Positions 20,996 through 28,384 of a stretch of 61,319 bases of DNA are shown piece after piece. The stretch comes from an uncultured Pseudomonadales bacterium (lineage in GTDB: Bacteria > Patescibacteriota > Microgenomatia > UBA1400 > PJMF01). The stretch lies in contig CAZBTU010000003.1 in NCBI GenBank assembly GCA_964494905.1, positions 1 to 61,319 on the forward strand, written 5' to 3'. A program made the translations under genes and the position numbers. The notes under the pieces were generated by a model, which did no database searches, was not told where the DNA came from, and was given only the letters and a program-made list of their open reading frames with translations. Each line of letters begins with the position of its first letter. Positions within the stretch are counted from its first letter, which is position 1.

Positions 20996-21119
20996 TCCGT
21001 TCCTTACTGTTGTAAGGTTATTACTGTTGCTGTAGCTTCAGTATACCCTAGAAGTTAAGAGTGAAAAAGGCAAGAACGCGTTCCATCAACTTGCCAAAAC
21101 TCAAACAGCCGTATACGAT

Positions 21120-21593
21120 GTGTTTATGCGTTACAAATCTCAAATTCTGCTTATCTTAAGTTCAGTTCTAGGTGTGACGCTCGGCGTTGTCAACACAGCA
21201 CAAGCCCAGGTTATTGAACAACATCAGTCCGCCAAAGTTACTACTGAGTTTGAATGCACTGGCACTTGCTCGTCCTATTCTTCTACCTCAGTTTCCCAGC
21301 GCCAATTCATTTCAAACAACTCCACTGCGTCAGAGTACAGGAGAGCACGCCCAGAAATCTGGAAGAGAAGAAACACATATGGCTCAGTGAGGCTCACATG
21401 GGAACCACAAGACGGTACTTGTCTTATCAGATATTCAGAGGCCAAACGAAGCGACTTTGCATATGCAACCTCGACTAGCTGCAACGAAGGAGAAATTACT
21501 ATTGGTGGCCTCGTACCAGGAAAAAACTATCGTTTTCAAGTCAAAATAGAAAATGACGACTGGTCAAAGCCAATTGTCAAAATTGCACGCTAA
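21120..21593 (+). CDS. Secreted protein with an FN3-like C-terminal domain
   Basis: Signal peptide ILLILSSVLGVTLGVVNTAQA/QV. C-terminus ITIGGLVPGKNYRFQVKI is typical of a fibronectin type III strand pattern. GTG start; an ATG lies at 21126. Confidence 0.55.
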   Translation: MFMRYKSQILLILSSVLGVTLGVVNTAQAQVIEQHQSAKVTTEFECTGTCSSYSSTSVSQRQFISNNSTASEYRRARPEIWKRRNTYGSVRLTWEPQDGTCLIRYSEAKRSDFAYATSTSCNEGEITIGGLVPGKNYRFQVKIENDDWSKPIVKIAR

Positions 21594-21663: not shown

Positions 21664-22575
21664 ATGACCTCACAGCCAAACAACACCAGCTCCAGTACTA
21701 ACCCAGTCGGGCGTTTTATGGTCGCAGCCGGCGCAGTGATTGAGCATCAAAAAACAGGTAAGATTTTGCTGCTTCAACGTGCTGAATCCCTCGATTGGCA
21801 AGCAGGTAGTTGGGAAATTGACTATGGACGACTTGACCAGTTTGAAGATCCGATTGTTGGTCTTAAACGTGAACTCAAAGAAGAAACAGGCATCACTGAC
21901 TTACATATCGGCAAAACTTTGAGAGTCTGGCACATCTTCCGTGGGCCAGAGACTGCTGAGAATGAACTCATCGGTATAACGTATCACTGCACAACTACAA
22001 CCGATGCTGTCACACTTTCTGCGGAACACCAGGATTACCGTTGGGTTGATGTGGAAGAAGCACTTGCTCTAATCAAAGTAGAAGGTATTAAACAAGATAT
22101 TCAGGCCTTTCAAGCAACCAAACATGCCCTTGCTCAATCGATCGGCAGACAGGTCATTGGTGTGGGCGCAGGAGCTCTGATTTTTGATAGCAGGAACAGA
22201 CTCCTCCTGTCTTTGAGAGGGGCAGGGGCCAAAAACGAAGCCGGCAAATGGGAAATTCCTGGAGGTGCAATCGAGTTTGGTGAAACTATCGAAGATGGTC
22301 TAAAAAGAGAGGTCGAAGAAGAACTCGCAATCAAGATCAAGGTCGGCGAAATGCTACAACTGTGCAACCACATTTTGCCTGATGAAGGTCAACATTGGGT
22401 GTCTCCCACATATCTTTGTGAAATAGTTGCTGGAACACCTACCATTCAAGAGCCAGAAAAATGTGAAAAAATTGGCTGGTTTACAGTTGCCGAAGCCGAA
22501 CTTCTACCGTTAGCACAAGTCACAAGGCAAGACATAGAAATTCTAAAAAGCAGACAGAACCACACGTTCACATAA
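21664..22575 (+). CDS. Tandem (double) Nudix hydrolase
   Basis: Two Nudix boxes: GRLDQFEDPIVGLKRELKEETGI and GGAIEFGETIEDGLKREVEEELAI (Gx5Ex7REUxEExGU). Confidence 0.85.
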   Translation: MTSQPNNTSSSTNPVGRFMVAAGAVIEHQKTGKILLLQRAESLDWQAGSWEIDYGRLDQFEDPIVGLKRELKEETGITDLHIGKTLRVWHIFRGPETAENELIGITYHCTTTTDAVTLSAEHQDYRWVDVEEALALIKVEGIKQDIQAFQATKHALAQSIGRQVIGVGAGALIFDSRNRLLLSLRGAGAKNEAGKWEIPGGAIEFGETIEDGLKREVEEELAIKIKVGEMLQLCNHILPDEGQHWVSPTYLCEIVAGTPTIQEPEKCEKIGWFTVAEAELLPLAQVTRQDIEILKSRQNHTFT

Positions 22576-22657
22576 TTGGCTTGAAGGCACTATCCAAAAT
22601 ACCAGTGAACACATTTCATAATAGCTCGTGTCACTTAGTTATGGTACTGTGGTCGTT

Positions 22658-23212
22658 ATGGAAAACCTAGAAACCATTCGATGCTTTGTTATGGTTGGAC
22701 TTCCCGGGAGTGGCAAAAGTACACTGGCTAAAAAACTTGCTCGCCAGCACGGTTGCACGGTACTCTCATCTGATGAAATTCGGCAAGAGCTACTCAACAG
22801 CAGTCGATTTGACCCCAGAGGAGATGACTTTGTGCGCGAACAAAGTAAGTACGCGTACGAGGTCATGTATGAGCGAGCACTCAAGTTGCTCACCGCGAAT
22901 AAAAAGGTTGTCCTTGACGCCACCCATCTAGATTCAGCTAAGAGAAAAGCAATGATCTCTCGCTTACTTAAAGTTGTTGAACCAGACTCTGTTTGTTTTG
23001 TGGTCGTTAAGCTACCGTATGAACTGATCGACGAGCGCATGTCAAACTATAATCAATTGAAAACAGATGCTGGCGAAACTGTTTATGAGGCATGGAAACG
23101 CGTGATCGCATACGTCCAGCAACACATTCAACAGGGCGAGTATACTTGGCCAACTGAGCAAGAAGGCATTCCTATCTTCAATTATGAAAAACTTAAATCT
23201 CTCTTGGACTAG
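22658..23212 (+). CDS. P-loop kinase of the AAA_33 / polynucleotide-kinase-like type
   Basis: VMVGLPGSGKSTLAKKLA Walker A, followed by SSDEIR (catalytic Asp position as in PNK-like kinases) and VVLDATH. The ATG at 22658 is used; the track start at 22628 is a GTG. Confidence 0.7.
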   Translation: MENLETIRCFVMVGLPGSGKSTLAKKLARQHGCTVLSSDEIRQELLNSSRFDPRGDDFVREQSKYAYEVMYERALKLLTANKKVVLDATHLDSAKRKAMISRLLKVVEPDSVCFVVVKLPYELIDERMSNYNQLKTDAGETVYEAWKRVIAYVQQHIQQGEYTWPTEQEGIPIFNYEKLKSLLD

Positions 23213-23879
23213 TGATATTAAGTGTCTTGCGTGGGATCTGGATGGCACGCTGTACCCACCTGACTCGAGGCTTGACCATGCAATTGAGTCACGAATTACG
23301 GCAGCGGTGGCACGTACACAACAAGTGAGTAGTTCAAGAGCAGAAGAATTGTTCTCAAACACTTACAATAAGTTACGAAGCAAAACAAAGAGTTTATCAA
23401 AACTTGGCATTCCAGGACAAGAATTCTTTCTTAATGTATGGAATGAAGTTGACCTCAGCCAGTTCATACAACCTAACCCTCAACTTGCAGTTGCACTCAT
23501 AGCTCTTTCAGAAAGTGGTAAGTTTGATTTAGCAATCCTCACTAACAGTAATACTAGCTCGACTGTCGCTTCCAAGCTAGCCATGATTGGAATTGATCCG
23601 CACTGTTTCAAGCACATACTCACTTCTGTCGATATCGGTTTTCAAAAACCTGATCCAGAGGCCTTTACTGCTTTGCTGCAAGCAACTAACCACCGACCTG
23701 ACCGAGTATTATATGTCGGTGATCGTGAAAACACAGATATCATACCTGCACAACTAATGGGTCTTAGGACTGCGTTAATAAGAAATAACTCGGCTGATTC
23801 TTCAAGCCAAGCCGATCTGATCATGCCATCGGCACTAGATTTGGCCGAATTTTTTCTCAAGAACACCATCAATGGGTAG
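23184..23879 (+). CDS. HAD-superfamily phosphatase
   Basis: Motif I AWDLDGTLY (DxDGT), motif II ILTNSN, motif III/IV K...YVGDRENTDI. Overlaps the kinase gene by 29 nt. Confidence 0.8.
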   Translation: MKNLNLSWTSDIKCLAWDLDGTLYPPDSRLDHAIESRITAAVARTQQVSSSRAEELFSNTYNKLRSKTKSLSKLGIPGQEFFLNVWNEVDLSQFIQPNPQLAVALIALSESGKFDLAILTNSNTSSTVASKLAMIGIDPHCFKHILTSVDIGFQKPDPEAFTALLQATNHRPDRVLYVGDRENTDIIPAQLMGLRTALIRNNSADSSSQADLIMPSALDLAEFFLKNTING

Positions 23880-23968
23880 GTTATAGCAGTAAGTTATAAT
23901 ACTTCCGTTCCTTAATACACCGATAAATGGATGTTCTGCATACAGATGTCCAATTCAGGAGAAAATCG

Positions 23969-24481
23969 ATGACGATTCAAGTTGTTCTCAGATCAGGGGA
24001 CATTACCACCAATGTCCCAGTAGATTGTTTGATTTCATCCATAAACTCTGAAGGCCTGTGGTTTGGCGGAGTTGATGAAGCGATCCGACGCGTCGCTGGT
24101 GATCAATTTCATAAACAAGCTCTTCAAATGTTGCGACAGTATGGCCTCCATGATGGGCAAGTACTATCACTGCCACAACAATGGGAACACGCAGGCAGCT
24201 TTCATAGCGTGCTGTTTGTGGTTGATGATCTGCAACAGCCACTCAACGTGCTGGTTTTTACCGCACTGAAAAAAGCAGAAAGCTGCGGATTTCGCAGTGT
24301 CGCACTCCCTCTGATGCGAACTGGAGTTGCTGCCGGAATAATGGAGCGCACTCAGCTTGAAGTAGTCCAAGCAATCAAAATGGGCCTACTCCAGTTTCTG
24401 AATGACTATCCTTATTCCAACATGCAGATCAATGTCGTCGCATACGGCATACCTAGTGCGATCCGGCTGTTCTTAATTTAG
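23969..24481 (+). CDS. Macro-domain protein (ADP-ribose / ADP-ribose-1''-phosphate binding or hydrolysing)
   Basis: LRSGDIT...VDCLISSINSEGLWFGGVDEAIRRVAG ... SVALPLMRTGVAAG matches the macro-domain GDIT / N-x-x-L-x-GGGV-x-x-AI / P-x-I-S-T-G pattern. The ATG at 23969 is preceded by AGGAGAA. Confidence 0.7.
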   Translation: MTIQVVLRSGDITTNVPVDCLISSINSEGLWFGGVDEAIRRVAGDQFHKQALQMLRQYGLHDGQVLSLPQQWEHAGSFHSVLFVVDDLQQPLNVLVFTALKKAESCGFRSVALPLMRTGVAAGIMERTQLEVVQAIKMGLLQFLNDYPYSNMQINVVAYGIPSAIRLFLI

Positions 24482-24512
24482 AGAACAGCCACTATCGTGT
24501 ATTTATACATAA

Positions 24513-24550
24513 AGCACCTAAACTGCTTGAACAGTTAGGTGCTTTTTTTT
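24513..24550. terminator. Intrinsic terminator between convergent genes
   Basis: AGCACCTAAACTG-cttgaa-CAGTTAGGTGCT followed by TTTTTTTT. Confidence 0.75.
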
Positions 24551-24592: not shown

Positions 24593-25621
24593 CTAAATGG
24601 TTGCGTCAAACTTCGGAAACAAAGCCTCATTGAGTGACTCACCGGTGTAAGTTCGACGAATTGCCTCTGATAATAGCGGCTCAATCGGAACCACTTGAAT
24701 CTTAGGGTGCTGAGTGATTTCAATTGGATGGGGGAGTGAGTTTGTCACCAGCACCTTTTCTATTGGTGAGCTGTCGAGTTTTTTCAAGAAATCACCAAGA
24801 AACAATCCGTGAGCTACAGCAACAAAAATTCTCCGAGCCCCACATTTGGCTGCCAACTCGGCCGCATGGAAAACCGTACTTCCACTCGCAATAATATCGT
24901 CGACAATCAATACATCTTTACCAACTACATCCCCAACCAATTCTACTGCAATTGAGGAGTTATCCGATCGCCTTCGCCTTTTATATATAAAGGCCAAACT
25001 GCTAGCTGTCAGAATGTGCGCGTAATAATCAGCGCGCTTTGTGCCACCAGCATCAGGGGAGAGCAGTACCCCACTCGAAAAACCGAGCTCTCGAATAGCA
25101 GGCACAAGTGAGTAGCTCGCATACAACTCATCCCAAGGCTCTTTGATATAGCCTTGCTGCTGGGCTGAATGATTATCTACTGTTATCAAACGATCAGCCC
25201 CAGCATGAACAAGCAGCTGCGGGAGCAGTGCAGCTGTGATAGGGACCCTGGGCTTGTCTTTTCTGTCTGCTCTTTGGTACGACGCGAACGGCTGCACAAC
25301 TGTGATTTCTTCTGCAGAAGCTCGACGCGCTGCATCAATCAGCAATAAAACTTCTAGAATCGCATCGGCTTGTTTTGGGGGACCAGTTGGCTGAACAATG
25401 AAAACTTCCCGCTTACGCAGATTGGGTGCGATGGCAACTTGTATCTCGCCATCGGGAAAACGCGACACTGGCTCAAAACACTTGATGCGTAATAACTCAG
25501 CAACACCTTGGGCTAAGGCAGGGTATGCGCTTCCAGTTAAGATTACAATTGCTAAAGGATCAAAGTCTCGAATTCCTGCTACTTCAATCTGGCTACATTC
25601 GTCGTCTATTCGCTGTTTCAC
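24593..25621 (-). CDS. prs: Ribose-phosphate pyrophosphokinase (PRPP synthetase), copy 1
   Basis: FPDGEIQV, VQPFASYQRADRK and the PRPP-binding loop VLIVDDIIASGSTV. GTG start with an N-terminal extension of about 25 aa. Confidence 0.85.
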   Translation of the reverse strand: MKQRIDDECSQIEVAGIRDFDPLAIVILTGSAYPALAQGVAELLRIKCFEPVSRFPDGEIQVAIAPNLRKREVFIVQPTGPPKQADAILEVLLLIDAARRASAEEITVVQPFASYQRADRKDKPRVPITAALLPQLLVHAGADRLITVDNHSAQQQGYIKEPWDELYASYSLVPAIRELGFSSGVLLSPDAGGTKRADYYAHILTASSLAFIYKRRRRSDNSSIAVELVGDVVGKDVLIVDDIIASGSTVFHAAELAAKCGARRIFVAVAHGLFLGDFLKKLDSSPIEKVLVTNSLPHPIEITQHPKIQVVPIEPLLSEAIRRTYTGESLNEALFPKFDATI

Positions 25622-27829: not shown

Positions 27830-28384
27830 TCAGAACTCGTTACCACGTTTTAGTTTCCGTATAGCCATTTGGGTAGCCGCAATAGTGGCACCATCGCTGA
27901 TCTCTCCTGCGTCTATCATCCGTAAAGCTTCGTCGTAAGTTACCCAACGCCGTTCGGCAATCACCTCACCGACCTCACTGTGATGGGTGTTTGTTTCAAG
28001 TGTCGGCGAATGTGCAATGAAGAAAGTGACCAGCTCAGTATTTAAGCTGTGAAGTGGATAGAACTTGCTGAGCTGTTCTACTGTCTCAACCTCTATTCCA
28101 GTTTCCTCTTTGAGTTCTCGTATCGCGGCCTGCTCGGCTGTCTCACCCTTGTCAATACCACCGCCAGGAATTTCCCAACTATAATCGTCAATTACGTACC
28201 TGTATTCACGACAGAGCAAGAGCTTATCATCGTGAACCACAACAACTGCAACTCCACTCTTGCGATCAACCCAAGCATATGCACCATTTGTGCCATCTGG
28301 AAAAACTATCTCGTCCTGATATAAAGTCAACCAGGCATCTGTATAAACAATGTTCCGTTTTCGCAACTTGTACATCGGCTTCAT
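27830..28384 (-). CDS. Nudix hydrolase (ADP-ribose pyrophosphatase-like)
   Basis: Nudix box GGGIDKGETAEQAAIRELKEETGI. Start taken at MKPMYKL (28384); the track ORF extends to 28441. Confidence 0.8.
   Translation of the reverse strand: MKPMYKLRKRNIVYTDAWLTLYQDEIVFPDGTNGAYAWVDRKSGVAVVVVHDDKLLLCREYRYVIDDYSWEIPGGGIDKGETAEQAAIRELKEETGIEVETVEQLSKFYPLHSLNTELVTFFIAHSPTLETNTHHSEVGEVIAERRWVTYDEALRMIDAGEISDGATIAATQMAIRKLKRGNEF

What the first reader, a model, noticed from the sequence alone, without database searches (positions are those of the whole stretch)
21664..24481. Nudix-Nudix / P-loop kinase / HAD phosphatase / macro-domain gene string
Four consecutive plus-strand genes, two of them overlapping by 29 nt, encode:
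- a double Nudix hydrolase
- a PNK-like P-loop kinase
- a DxDGT HAD phosphatase
- a macro domain

A P-loop kinase plus a DxDxT phosphatase is the domain pair of T4-type polynucleotide kinase-phosphatase, here split into two genes.

Macro domains and Nudix enzymes process ADP-ribose-1''-phosphate and ADP-ribose, the by-products of 2'-phosphotransferase RNA repair or of ADP-ribosylation reversal.

Together they could form an RNA end-healing or ADP-ribose detoxification module. No ligase or Tpt1 is present in the window.

A further ADP-ribose-type Nudix gene (27830-28384) and a prs gene lie close by.
Basis: inference. Interest (0 to 1): 0.6.

Follow-up and report, generated by a model that had tools for sequence, protein, structure and literature searches.

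The report
Conserved kinase–nucleotidase pair, not RNA repair
The four genes are real, but only the kinase and phosphatase form a conserved unit, often fused into one protein in related tiny bacteria and usually sitting among DNA-building-block genes, so this looks like nucleotide salvage housekeeping rather than an RNA-repair or ADP-ribose detoxification system.

Summary
Four co-directional genes are present: a double Nudix, an AAA_33 P-loop kinase, a DxDGT HAD phosphatase that overlaps the kinase by 29 nt, and a MacroD-like macro domain. A strong terminator follows the macro gene. All four are under purifying selection.

- **Kinase–HAD pair.** It is a genuine unit. In the same order it is adjacent or overlapping in 10 of 19 loci and fused into one ~400-430 aa protein in 7 more, always kinase first. 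Fusion or fission happened at least three times.
- **The HAD.** It is not the cap-less T4/PNKP-type 3'-phosphatase. It is a C1-capped HAD-IA enzyme whose best structural matches are the 5'-nucleotidases XMP phosphatase and SDT1.
- **Context of the pair.** In six related families it sits in tight operons with dCTP deaminase, thymidylate kinase, deoxynucleoside kinase and ribonucleotide reductase. It occurs fused to TK and dNK, and elsewhere lies next to purA/purB or CTP synthase.
- **Double Nudix and macro.** Neither is linked to the pair anywhere except in ~90%-identical relatives.
- **Absent partners.** The genome (about 90% complete) shows no RtcB, Tpt1/KptA or sirtuin.

Best reading: an uncharacterised, rare kinase/5'-nucleotidase module of (deoxy)nucleotide salvage, placed here in a lineage-specific operon of nucleotide housekeeping enzymes. 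Interest is modest. The scan had not noted this pair on other DNA.

The parts
21664..22575 (+). Double Nudix hydrolase (303 aa). The N half is NudB/RppH-like with its Nudix box at 21826-21894. The C half is MutT/NudG-like with its box at 22264-22332.
   Evidence: Pfam NUDIX 1.1e-37 in two stretches. NCBIfam best hits are MutT (83 bits against a cut-off of 97.9), NudG, NudB and RppH, all below their cut-offs. In relatives each half is a separate, widespread single-domain gene at 55-66% identity. The same fusion occurs in only two other genomes of 285. dN/dS is 0.10.
22658..23212 (+). AAA_33 (PNK-like) P-loop kinase, 184 aa from ATG 22658. The longest ORF starts at GTG 22628. Walker A is G24-T32, and D49-x-x-R52, D97 and R137 are conserved (194-aa numbering).
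   Evidence: Pfam AAA_33 81 bits. PHROG 505 'polynucleotide kinase' 60 bits, matching the kinase half only. The family alignment gives the invariant residues. The AF2 model has pLDDT 88, and Foldseek cannot separate PNK, PFK-2, gluconate-kinase and shikimate-kinase relatives.
23184..23879 (+). HAD-IA (C1-capped) phosphatase, 231 aa, overlapping the kinase by 29 nt. Motifs are D18-L-D20-G-T22, T120, K155 and G179-D180...D184. Likely a 5'-nucleotidase.
   Evidence: It passes the NCBIfam HAD-SF-IA-v1 and v3 cut-offs. Its best named hits are TIGR02253 and the pyrimidine 5'-nucleotidase model TIGR01993, both below cut-off. PDB sequence hits are PH1655, YfnB and XMP phosphatase. In the fused homologue model the cap is a helical bundle, and the best Foldseek hits are XMP phosphatase 7ef6/7ef7 (TM 0.74, rmsd 2.7 A) and SDT1.
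23969..24481 (+). MacroD/Af1521-like macro domain, 170 aa from ATG 23969. The longest ORF starts at 23927. The N40-x6-GGVD50 motif is present, and the second loop reads TGVAAG instead of G-x-[YF]-G (184-aa numbering).
   Evidence: Pfam Macro 30.4 bits against 22. NCBIfam O-acetyl-ADP-ribose deacetylase models score about 36 bits against cut-offs of 200 or more. PDB hits are PARP14 macro1, YmdB, MACROD2 and Af1521 at E 1e-4 to 1e-3. Orthologues occur in only 4 of 285 genomes of the order, none of which has the kinase. It is the only macro gene found in the genome.
24511..24550 (.). Bidirectional intrinsic terminator (an A-tract, a 14-bp GC-rich stem and a U8 run) between the convergent macro and prs genes. 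It ends the transcription unit.
   Evidence: The RNA fold is -26.6 kcal/mol, z = -3.83, and 0 of 200 shuffles fold as well. The sequence is shown.
24593..25621 (-). Ribose-phosphate diphosphokinase (prs), convergent with the string.
   Evidence: TIGR01251 scores 284 bits against a cut-off of 113. A prs gene also lies 3-6 kb from the kinase-HAD pair in two genomes of one other genus.
27830..28384 (-). Single-domain Nudix most similar to NudE/YffH ADP-sugar pyrophosphatases. It is a neighbour, not part of the conserved unit.
   Evidence: NCBIfam NudE scores 61.7 bits against 169, and TIGR00052 scores 49 against 79.6. Both are below cut-off.

Best explanation
The core of the locus is a two-enzyme module: a PNK-like AAA_33 P-loop kinase translationally coupled to a C1-capped HAD-IA phosphatase of the XMP-phosphatase/SDT1 5'-nucleotidase type.

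**Shown.** The two always travel together in the order kinase then HAD, and they are one polypeptide in several relatives. The family is small and confined to Woesebacteria-like Microgenomates. Its recurrent, operon-tight partners are dCTP deaminase, thymidylate kinase, deoxynucleoside and thymidine kinases (sometimes fused to the same kinase domain), ribonucleotide reductase, purA/purB and CTP synthase.

**Inferred.** The module acts on free (deoxy)nucleosides or nucleoside monophosphates that these salvage-dependent cells scavenge.
- The kinase commits a (d)NMP or nucleoside to the (d)NTP pool.
- The capped nucleotidase removes surplus or non-canonical (d)NMPs.
- Together they form a branch point or substrate cycle that balances the pool.

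**The rest of the string.** In this genome and its ~90%-identical relatives, the pair has been placed between a fused double Nudix (MutT/NudG-like plus NudB/RppH-like) and a MacroD-like macro domain. The unit ends at a strong terminator facing prs. This forms a lineage-specific operon of nucleotide and ADP-ribose housekeeping enzymes, not a dedicated RNA end-healing or ADP-ribose detoxification system.
For: - **Pair conservation.** Of 19 loci in the order, 10 have the genes adjacent or overlapping and 7 have them fused. A further 10 loci from the wide database have them adjacent or fused in every case.
- **Repeated fusion.** Fused forms occur in at least three places on the kinase tree.
- **Family size.** There are 124 representatives at E<=1e-30 among 1.84 billion proteins. 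No orthologue turned up in a 400-genome sample of the phylum. In the order, 20 of 286 genomes have one.
- **Gene context.**
  - dcd - [kinase-HAD] - tmk operons, with dNK, RNR and TopoI, occur in six taxonomic families.
  - TK-dNK-AAA_33 (685 aa) and dNK-AAA_33-AAA_33 (617 aa) fusions exist.
  - Other loci show purB-purA-kinase-HAD, purA, a phosphoribosyltransferase with CTP synthase, and DeoC.
- **HAD class.** It passes the HAD-SF-IA cut-offs and its best named model is pyrimidine 5'-nucleotidase. The AF2 model shows a helical C1 cap. The best structural matches are XMP phosphatase (TM 0.74, rmsd 2.7 A) and SDT1.
- **No repair partners.** No RtcB, Tpt1 or SIR2 was found in the genome.
- **Operon features.** Gaps are short, a 29-nt overlap links kinase and HAD, there is no internal terminator and a terminal hairpin follows. 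The gene order is kept in relatives, with dN/dS 0.10-0.21.
Against: - No substrate was tested.
- By sequence the kinase is closest to polynucleotide kinases (PHROG 505, 60 bits; bacterial Pnkp is the top NCBIfam hit). Structurally it is equidistant from PNK, PFK-2, gluconate and shikimate kinases. A nucleoside or nucleotide acceptor is therefore inferred from context only.
- About half of the loci, including most of the window's own sub-clade, have no nucleotide-metabolism neighbour.
- A kinase and a nucleotidase acting on the same compound would be a futile cycle unless they are regulated or differ in specificity.
- The related loci are not phylogenetically independent, and no background rate of nucleotide-gene neighbours was computed.
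- Co-transcription of the four genes is inferred.
Confidence: 0.6

Rival explanations
1. Split T4-type polynucleotide kinase-phosphatase. The kinase phosphorylates 5'-OH ends and the HAD removes 3'-phosphates of broken RNA or DNA (end healing). The macro and Nudix enzymes clear ADP-ribose by-products.
For: - The domain order is kinase then HAD, as in T4 Pnkp, and relatives have single-polypeptide forms.
- The kinase's best PHROG is 'polynucleotide kinase' (5e-16) and its best NCBIfam hit is bacterial Pnkp.
- D-x-x-R and the Walker motifs are invariant.
- The PDB profile hits include the CthPnkp kinase, Pnkp1 and T4 Pnk.
- T4 Pnkp aligns over both domains of the fused model.
Against: - The HAD has a C1 cap, typical of small-molecule phosphatases, and does not match the phosphatase half of PHROG 505.
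- The T4 Pnkp superposition is poor (TM 0.29-0.38, rmsd about 15 A), whereas nucleotidases give TM 0.74.
- No locus has a ligase, Hen1, RtcB or Tpt1 beside the pair, and none was found in the genome.
- The conserved partners are dNTP-metabolism genes.
- Macro and the double Nudix are not linked to the pair outside near-identical relatives.
Confidence: 0.1
2. Kinase/phosphatase pair for a non-nucleotide small molecule, such as a sugar phosphate or ribose/deoxyribose phosphate. It would work like PFK-2/FBPase-2 or the gluconate and shikimate kinases and set the level of a metabolite.
For: - Foldseek places the kinase as close to the PFK-2 kinase domain (TMq 0.63-0.66) and to gluconate kinase as to PNK.
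- One locus has DeoC-family aldolase and FBPase directly downstream.
- The HAD has a weak partial hit to ribulose-1,5-bisphosphate 5-phosphatase.
Against: - Sugar-metabolism context appears in only one locus, whereas nucleotide genes recur in tight operons and in gene fusions with TK and dNK.
- The HAD's best structural matches are nucleotide phosphatases.
Confidence: 0.15
3. The four genes plus prs and the NudE-like Nudix form an ADP-ribose recycling unit. The macro releases ADP-ribose, a Nudix splits it into AMP and ribose-5-phosphate, and prs makes PRPP.
For: - The macro has the MacroD N-x6-GGVD motif.
- A NudE/YffH-like Nudix and prs lie within 4 kb.
- The gene order is kept in ~90%-identical relatives.
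- One macro orthologue elsewhere has a Nudix gene directly upstream.
Against: - Macro orthologues occur in 4 of 285 genomes of the order, and none of these has the kinase-HAD pair.
- The double Nudix halves are MutT/NudB-like, not ADP-ribose-type.
- No sirtuin or Tpt1 was found in the genome to produce O-acetyl-ADP-ribose or Appr1p.
- prs is convergent, beyond a terminator.
- This reading does not explain the kinase-HAD pair.
Confidence: 0.1

Closest known systems
Bacteriophage T4 polynucleotide kinase-phosphatase (Pnkp/PseT; PDB 1ltq, 2ia5) and bacterial Pnkp kinase domains (Clostridium thermocellum, PDB 4jst/4gp7)
   Same: An N-terminal P-loop kinase with Walker A, D-x-x-R and a D-x-T motif is followed by a DxDxT HAD phosphatase. 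In relatives the two are one polypeptide. The kinase matches the kinase half of the phage Pnkp family (PHROG 505, 60 bits).
   Different: The phosphatase here carries an ~85-residue C1 helical cap and belongs to HAD-IA, whereas T4 and PNKP phosphatases are cap-less. The whole-protein superposition is poor (TM 0.29-0.38). There is no ligase or Hen1 partner, and the genomic context is dNTP metabolism. In the window the two domains are separate, overlapping genes.
SDT1 / XMP phosphatase family of HAD-IA 5'-nucleotidases (yeast SDT1, PDB 3onn/3opx; plant XMPP, PDB 7ef6/7ef7; model TIGR01993), and the YjjG/YfnB house-cleaning nucleotidases
   Same: The HAD core plus C1 cap fold is shared (TM 0.74, rmsd 2.7 A to XMPP). 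All four HAD motifs are present. The best named NCBIfam models are pyrimidine 5'-nucleotidase and YjjG.
   Different: Scores fall below the equivalog cut-offs (69 against 142.9 bits), with about 20% identity. The known enzymes are stand-alone, whereas this family is obligatorily paired or fused with a kinase.
6-phosphofructo-2-kinase/fructose-2,6-bisphosphatase (PFKFB; PDB 1bif, 2axn)
   Same: It is a bifunctional P-loop kinase plus phosphatase in one chain, acting in opposite directions on one small molecule. Its kinase domain is among the best structural matches (TMq 0.63-0.66).
   Different: Its phosphatase is a histidine phosphatase, not a HAD enzyme. The substrate is a sugar phosphate, the enzyme is eukaryotic, and no sequence-level family membership holds (Pfam 6PF2K 22.5 bits against a cut-off of 27).
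MacroD-type macro domains (E. coli YmdB, human MACROD1/2, Archaeoglobus Af1521)
   Same: The Pfam Macro domain scores above its cut-off, the N-x6-GGVD motif is present, and the top PDB sequence hits are these proteins.
   Different: It is very divergent (E about 1e-4) and scores far below the NCBIfam equivalog cut-offs. The second phosphate-binding loop lacks the aromatic residue (TGVAAG).

Membership tests
T4-type polynucleotide kinase-phosphatase (Pnkp) | P-loop kinase of the PNK type (Walker A; catalytic Asp and acceptor-binding Arg in D-x-x-R) | tested here: met
   GLPGSGKST, D49-x-x-R52 and D97 are invariant in 20 family members. PHROG 505 'polynucleotide kinase' scores 60 bits over profile positions 4-166 of 295. 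Structural search does not separate it from other AAA_33-like kinases.
T4-type polynucleotide kinase-phosphatase (Pnkp) | Cap-less (C0) DxDxT HAD 3'-phosphatase homologous to the Pnkp/PNKP phosphatase domain | tested here: not met
   The HAD passes the HAD-SF-IA cut-offs. The model shows five helices inserted between motif I and motif II. It has no hit to the phosphatase half of PHROG 505. The best folds are XMPP and SDT1, while T4 Pnkp gives TM 0.29-0.38 and rmsd about 15 A.
T4-type polynucleotide kinase-phosphatase (Pnkp) | Genomic or functional partnership with an RNA ligase, Hen1 or RtcB repair enzyme | tested here: not met
   None was found in about 29 loci examined. No RtcB or Tpt1 was found in the roughly 90%-complete genome.
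T4-type polynucleotide kinase-phosphatase (Pnkp) | 5'-OH kinase and 3'-phosphatase activity on polynucleotides | not testable with these tools
   This needs a biochemical assay.
HAD-IA (C1-capped) 5'-nucleotidases of the SDT1/XMPP type | Four HAD motifs and a helical C1 cap between motifs I and II | tested here: met
   D18xD20GT22, T120, K155 and G179D...D184 are present. TIGR01549 scores 32.6 against 23.3 and TIGR01509 scores 32.3 against 29.4. The cap helices are seen in the AF2 model of a 38%-identical fused homologue.
HAD-IA (C1-capped) 5'-nucleotidases of the SDT1/XMPP type | Score above the curated equivalog cut-off (TIGR01993 pyrimidine 5'-nucleotidase) | tested here: not met
   It scores 69.1 bits against a cut-off of 142.9. 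The structural similarity is nevertheless the best of all PDB entries.
HAD-IA (C1-capped) 5'-nucleotidases of the SDT1/XMPP type | Hydrolysis of nucleoside 5'-monophosphates | not testable with these tools
   This needs a biochemical assay.
MacroD-type macro domain | Pfam Macro above the gathering score, with the N-x6-GG[VLI]D motif | tested here: met
   It scores 30.4 bits against 22. N40-SEGLWF-GGVD50 is present.
MacroD-type macro domain | G-[VIA]-[YF]-G second loop and an equivalog-level score (YmdB-type O-acetyl-ADP-ribose deacetylase) | tested here: not met
   The loop reads T-G-V-A-A-G. The NCBIfam models score 36 bits or less against cut-offs of 200 or more.
Nudix hydrolases (double) | The Nudix box G-x5-E-x7-R-E-U-x-E-E-x-G-U in each half | tested here: met
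   The first box, G55-I77, is perfect. The second, G201-I223, has a single G-to-A change at the penultimate position (sequence). Pfam finds two NUDIX stretches.
ADP-ribose pyrophosphatase (NudE/NudF/YffH) for any of the Nudix domains | Score above the curated cut-offs of the ADP-sugar pyrophosphatase models | tested here: not met
   The double Nudix scores highest with MutT, NudG, NudB and RppH. The third Nudix scores 61.7 against 169 for NudE and 49 against 79.6 for TIGR00052.

The most novel reading that the evidence does not exclude
The kinase-HAD module could be a mononucleotide-level counterpart of Pnkp. The PNK-like kinase would phosphorylate the 5'-OH of nucleoside 3'-phosphates, or of very short oligonucleotides, released when scavenged RNA or DNA is cut by metal-independent nucleases. 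The capped HAD would then remove the 3'-phosphate. The net result is conversion of otherwise useless 3'-(d)NMPs into 5'-(d)NMPs that enter the adjacent dcd/tmk/dNK/RNR pathway. This would be a previously undescribed salvage route in bacteria that cannot make nucleotides de novo.
Probability: 0.1. Interest if true: 0.65.

Novelty: new variant of a known kind. Interest (0 to 1): 0.35.

Why it matters
Candidate-phyla-radiation bacteria cannot make nucleotides de novo and depend on salvage, yet their salvage enzymes are poorly known. This work identifies a small, uncharacterised family specific to one lineage. In it a PNK-like kinase is obligatorily coupled, and repeatedly fused, to a capped 5'-nucleotidase-like HAD enzyme. 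The family is embedded in dNTP-metabolism operons and occurs in multi-kinase fusions with TK and dNK. Characterising it would fill a step in how these minimal cells balance or recycle nucleotide pools. It would also show how a Pnkp-like architecture can be rebuilt from a different HAD subclass. For annotation, the result warns against calling every 'P-loop kinase + DxDxT phosphatase' pair an RNA-repair enzyme.

Tried and rejected
- **Genome-contig scan with the kinase alignment.** The generic P-loop pattern swamped it, and it returned only distant AAA_33 kinases from other phyla. It was not used.
- **Tmk replacement idea.** No Tmk was found in the window's genome. But Tmk is present in 15 of 15 relatives, with or without the kinase. 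The gap is best explained by the roughly 90% completeness, so there is no phyletic complementarity.
- **Foldseek of the kinase model.** It could not discriminate between polynucleotide, sugar and nucleotide kinases.
- **Linkage of the double Nudix or macro to the pair.** I searched 285 genomes of the order and inspected the orthologue loci. No linkage was found. One unrelated Nudix lies convergent to a kinase-HAD pair (L202), but it is only 27% identical and is not an orthologue.
- **Zeta-toxin-like toxin/antidote reading.** Rejected because the Pfam Zeta_toxin score is below its cut-off (21.5 against 22.3), fused forms exist, and the context is metabolic operons.
- **Literature searches.** Searches for CPR nucleotide salvage combined with these enzymes returned nothing. 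A review of NAD/ADP-ribose systems (PMC9503650) describes HAD, Nudix and macro enzymes in phage RNA-repair neighbourhoods, but with ligases, sirtuins or KptA, which are absent here.

Full report
**1. What is in the sequence**

The window is contig C3 of a 1.45-Mb, 137-contig genome that is about 90% complete. Earlier notes of this scan call it a Woesebacterium, a member of the candidate phyla radiation. I did not verify this independently.

- **Double Nudix, 21664-22575.** It has two Pfam NUDIX stretches and two readable Nudix boxes, G55-I77 and G201-I223. The N half resembles NudB/RppH. The C half resembles MutT/NudG. All of these hits are below the equivalog cut-offs.
- **Kinase, 22628-23212.** It is an AAA_33 P-loop kinase (81 bits). 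Homologues and the gene call in a 91%-identical relative put its start at ATG 22658.
- **HAD, 23184-23879.** It overlaps the kinase by 29 nt and carries all four HAD motifs.
- **Macro, 23927-24481.** It is a weak but valid Macro domain (30.4 bits against 22). Its real start is most likely ATG 23969. A conserved AGGAG precedes that codon, while the upstream ATG is ACG in the relative.

No terminator-like site lies inside the string. A strong bidirectional hairpin with a U-tract at about 24511-24550 separates it from the convergent prs gene.

Two metagenomic contigs about 90% identical in DNA keep the same order: Nudix-Nudix, kinase, HAD, macro. dN/dS for the four genes is 0.10-0.21, so all four are functional genes.

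**2. Which parts belong together**

I searched 286 genomes of the same order with a profile of the kinase family. Twenty have an orthologue. In a 400-genome sample of the whole phylum none does; the best score was 69 bits against 110-270 bits for true members.

In the 19 loci I extracted, the HAD gene lies directly downstream of the kinase in 10, usually overlapping by 4-44 nt. In 7 more the two are a single ORF of 400-432 aa. Two loci have the kinase alone.

Ten further loci from the wide protein database show the same pairing or fusion without exception.

On a kinase-domain tree the fused forms fall in a well-supported clade of five. They also appear twice, separately, inside the window's own clade. 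Fusion or fission therefore happened at least three times.

A profile of the fused proteins finds only 124 representatives at E<=1e-30 among 1.84 billion cluster representatives. The family is small and uncharacterised. One database member is named simply 'HAD-IA family hydrolase [Candidatus Beckwithbacteria]'.

The other two genes behave differently.

- **Macro.** It has orthologues in only 4 of 285 other genomes of the order. None of these carries the kinase, and none shares neighbours with the window.
- **Double Nudix.** It is a fusion of two single-domain Nudix genes. In most relatives these lie at separate loci and are strongly conserved (55-66% identity). The same fusion was seen in only two other genomes, again with different neighbours.

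The four-gene string is therefore specific to this lineage. The kinase-HAD pairing is strongly confirmed.

**3. What the pair is**

*The HAD.*
- It passes the curated cut-offs of the HAD-IA subfamily models. Its best named hits are the pyrimidine 5'-nucleotidase and YjjG models.
- An AlphaFold model of a fused homologue has pLDDT 92.5. That homologue is 38% identical to both window proteins. The model shows a bundle of helices inserted between motif I and motif II, which is a C1 cap.
- The best structural matches in the PDB are XMP phosphatase (TM 0.74, rmsd 2.7 A) and yeast SDT1.
- T4 Pnkp aligns across both domains, but poorly (TM 0.29-0.38, rmsd about 15 A).
- The HAD does not match the phosphatase half of the phage Pnkp family, PHROG 505, whereas the kinase matches its kinase half.

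From established knowledge of the HAD superfamily (Burroughs et al. 2006, cited in PMC9503650), capped HADs act on small molecules. The polynucleotide 3'-phosphatases of T4 Pnkp and PNKP are cap-less. The defining phosphatase feature of Pnkp is therefore not met.

*The kinase.*
- By sequence it is PNK-like. Its best PHROG is 505 (60 bits) and its top NCBIfam hit is bacterial Pnkp. Walker A, D49-x-x-R52 and D97 are invariant.
- A profile search of PDB sequences and Foldseek on its model (pLDDT 88) return four groups at similar scores: CthPnkp, PFK-2, the gluconate and shikimate kinases, and the adenylate kinases.
- Its phosphate acceptor therefore cannot be read from homology.

**4. Context as the best functional evidence**

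In six taxonomic families of the order the pair sits in tight, often overlapping operons with nucleotide genes:
- dCTP deaminase;
- thymidylate kinase, sometimes fused to a nucleoside-deoxyribosyltransferase-like domain;
- deoxynucleoside kinase;
- ribonucleotide reductase;
- topoisomerase I.

One genome with a kinase 43% identical to the window's has the order dcd, a 220-aa unknown, kinase, HAD, dNK, tmk, all on one strand.

Two genomes carry the same kinase domain inside multi-kinase polypeptides: TK-dNK-AAA_33 (685 aa) and dNK-AAA_33-AAA_33 (617 aa). In both, the HAD and tmk genes lie alongside.

Elsewhere the pair follows purB-purA, lies next to purA, or is near a phosphoribosyltransferase and CTP synthase. 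In one case it precedes a DeoC-family aldolase and FBPase.

About half of the loci, including most of the window's own sub-clade, have unrelated neighbours. No ligase, Hen1, RtcB or Tpt1 appears in any locus. RtcB, Tpt1 and SIR2 were not found in the window's genome.

**5. Most likely mechanism**

*Shown.* This is an obligatory kinase/capped-HAD couple, repeatedly fused, embedded in (deoxy)nucleotide metabolism.

*Inferred.* The kinase phosphorylates a nucleoside or (d)NMP obtained by salvage. The nucleotidase-like HAD dephosphorylates surplus or non-canonical (d)NMPs. Together they act as a branch point or substrate cycle that balances nucleotide pools.

In the window, the upstream MutT/NudG-like Nudix would fit such a house-cleaning theme: NTP to NMP by the Nudix, then NMP to nucleoside by the HAD. 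That link is specific to this lineage.

The macro domain, the NudE-like Nudix and prs could handle ADP-ribose. Nothing ties them to the pair beyond local gene order.

I put 0.6 on this reading. The alternatives are:
- a true split Pnkp, 0.1;
- a non-nucleotide small-molecule pair, 0.15;
- the string as an ADP-ribose recycling unit, 0.1.

The most novel reading not excluded is a mononucleotide-level 'Pnkp' that converts 3'-(d)NMPs into 5'-(d)NMPs (about 0.1).

**6. Comparison with known systems and novelty**

The module works like a bifunctional kinase/phosphatase. It shares T4 Pnkp's domain order and kinase type. It fails the Pnkp membership test on the phosphatase class and on repair partners.

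Its HAD is a HAD-IA enzyme closest to SDT1 and XMPP, but it scores below their family cut-offs.

I know of no characterised enzyme that couples a PNK-like kinase to a capped nucleotidase, and two literature searches found none. I therefore rate it a new variant of a known kind.

As a finding it is of modest interest. The RNA-repair/ADP-ribose idea that motivated it is not supported. What remains is a clean, testable lead on nucleotide salvage in ultra-small bacteria.

**7. Limits**

- No biochemistry was possible.
- The related loci are phylogenetically non-independent, and no background neighbourhood rate was computed.
- The structure with the cap is that of a homologue, not of the window's own HAD.
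- The genome is about 90% complete, so 'not found' is not 'absent'.

Noticed in passing
window 24511-24550: A strong bidirectional intrinsic terminator (an A-tract, a 14-bp stem and a U8 run) lies between the convergent macro and prs genes. The simple consensus scan missed it.
   Followed up: yes
window 23927-23969 and 22628-22658: The longest-ORF starts of the macro and kinase genes are probably wrong. The macro most likely starts at ATG 23969, which has a conserved AGGAG, while the upstream ATG is ACG in a ~90%-identical relative. The kinase most likely starts at ATG 22658. A TATAAT at 23896-23901 could be an internal promoter for the macro gene.
   Followed up: partly
window 21664-22575; G671:C28:12953-13843 (L168); G008:C8:2560-3447 (L169): The double Nudix is a fusion of two single-domain Nudix genes. 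Elsewhere in the order these are separate, unlinked and unusually well conserved (55-66% identity). The same fusion occurs in only two other genomes, from two different families. Many other ORFs of about 280-300 aa hit only one half, which suggests further Nudix fusions.
   Followed up: partly
L154:6420-8477 (G438) and L155:7209-9062 (G446): Multi-kinase polypeptides occur: thymidine kinase - deoxynucleoside kinase - AAA_33 (685 aa) and dNK - AAA_33 - AAA_33 (617 aa). Similar proteins of 628-638 aa appear among the database representatives (P0081, P0140, P0173).
   Followed up: partly
L159:9310-10413, L188:7536-8639 and relatives: A thymidylate kinase is fused to an N-terminal domain resembling nucleoside 2-deoxyribosyltransferase (367 aa). 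It lies directly downstream of the kinase-HAD gene in several genomes.
   Followed up: no
L161:8520-9182 (-) in G030: A 220-aa protein with no Pfam match sits between dCTP deaminase and the kinase, in a tight operon of dcd, this unknown, kinase, HAD, dNK and tmk.
   Followed up: no
whole genome G000: No thymidylate kinase or deoxynucleoside kinase was detected in the window's genome, although Tmk is present in 15 of 15 relatives checked. The most likely cause is the roughly 10% of the genome that is missing.
   Followed up: partly
window 21120-21593: A small secreted-looking protein with a signal-peptide-like N-terminus and one fibronectin type III domain lies 70 nt upstream of the double Nudix on the same strand. 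A sigma-70-like promoter match at 21091-21119 abuts its annotated GTG start.
   Followed up: no
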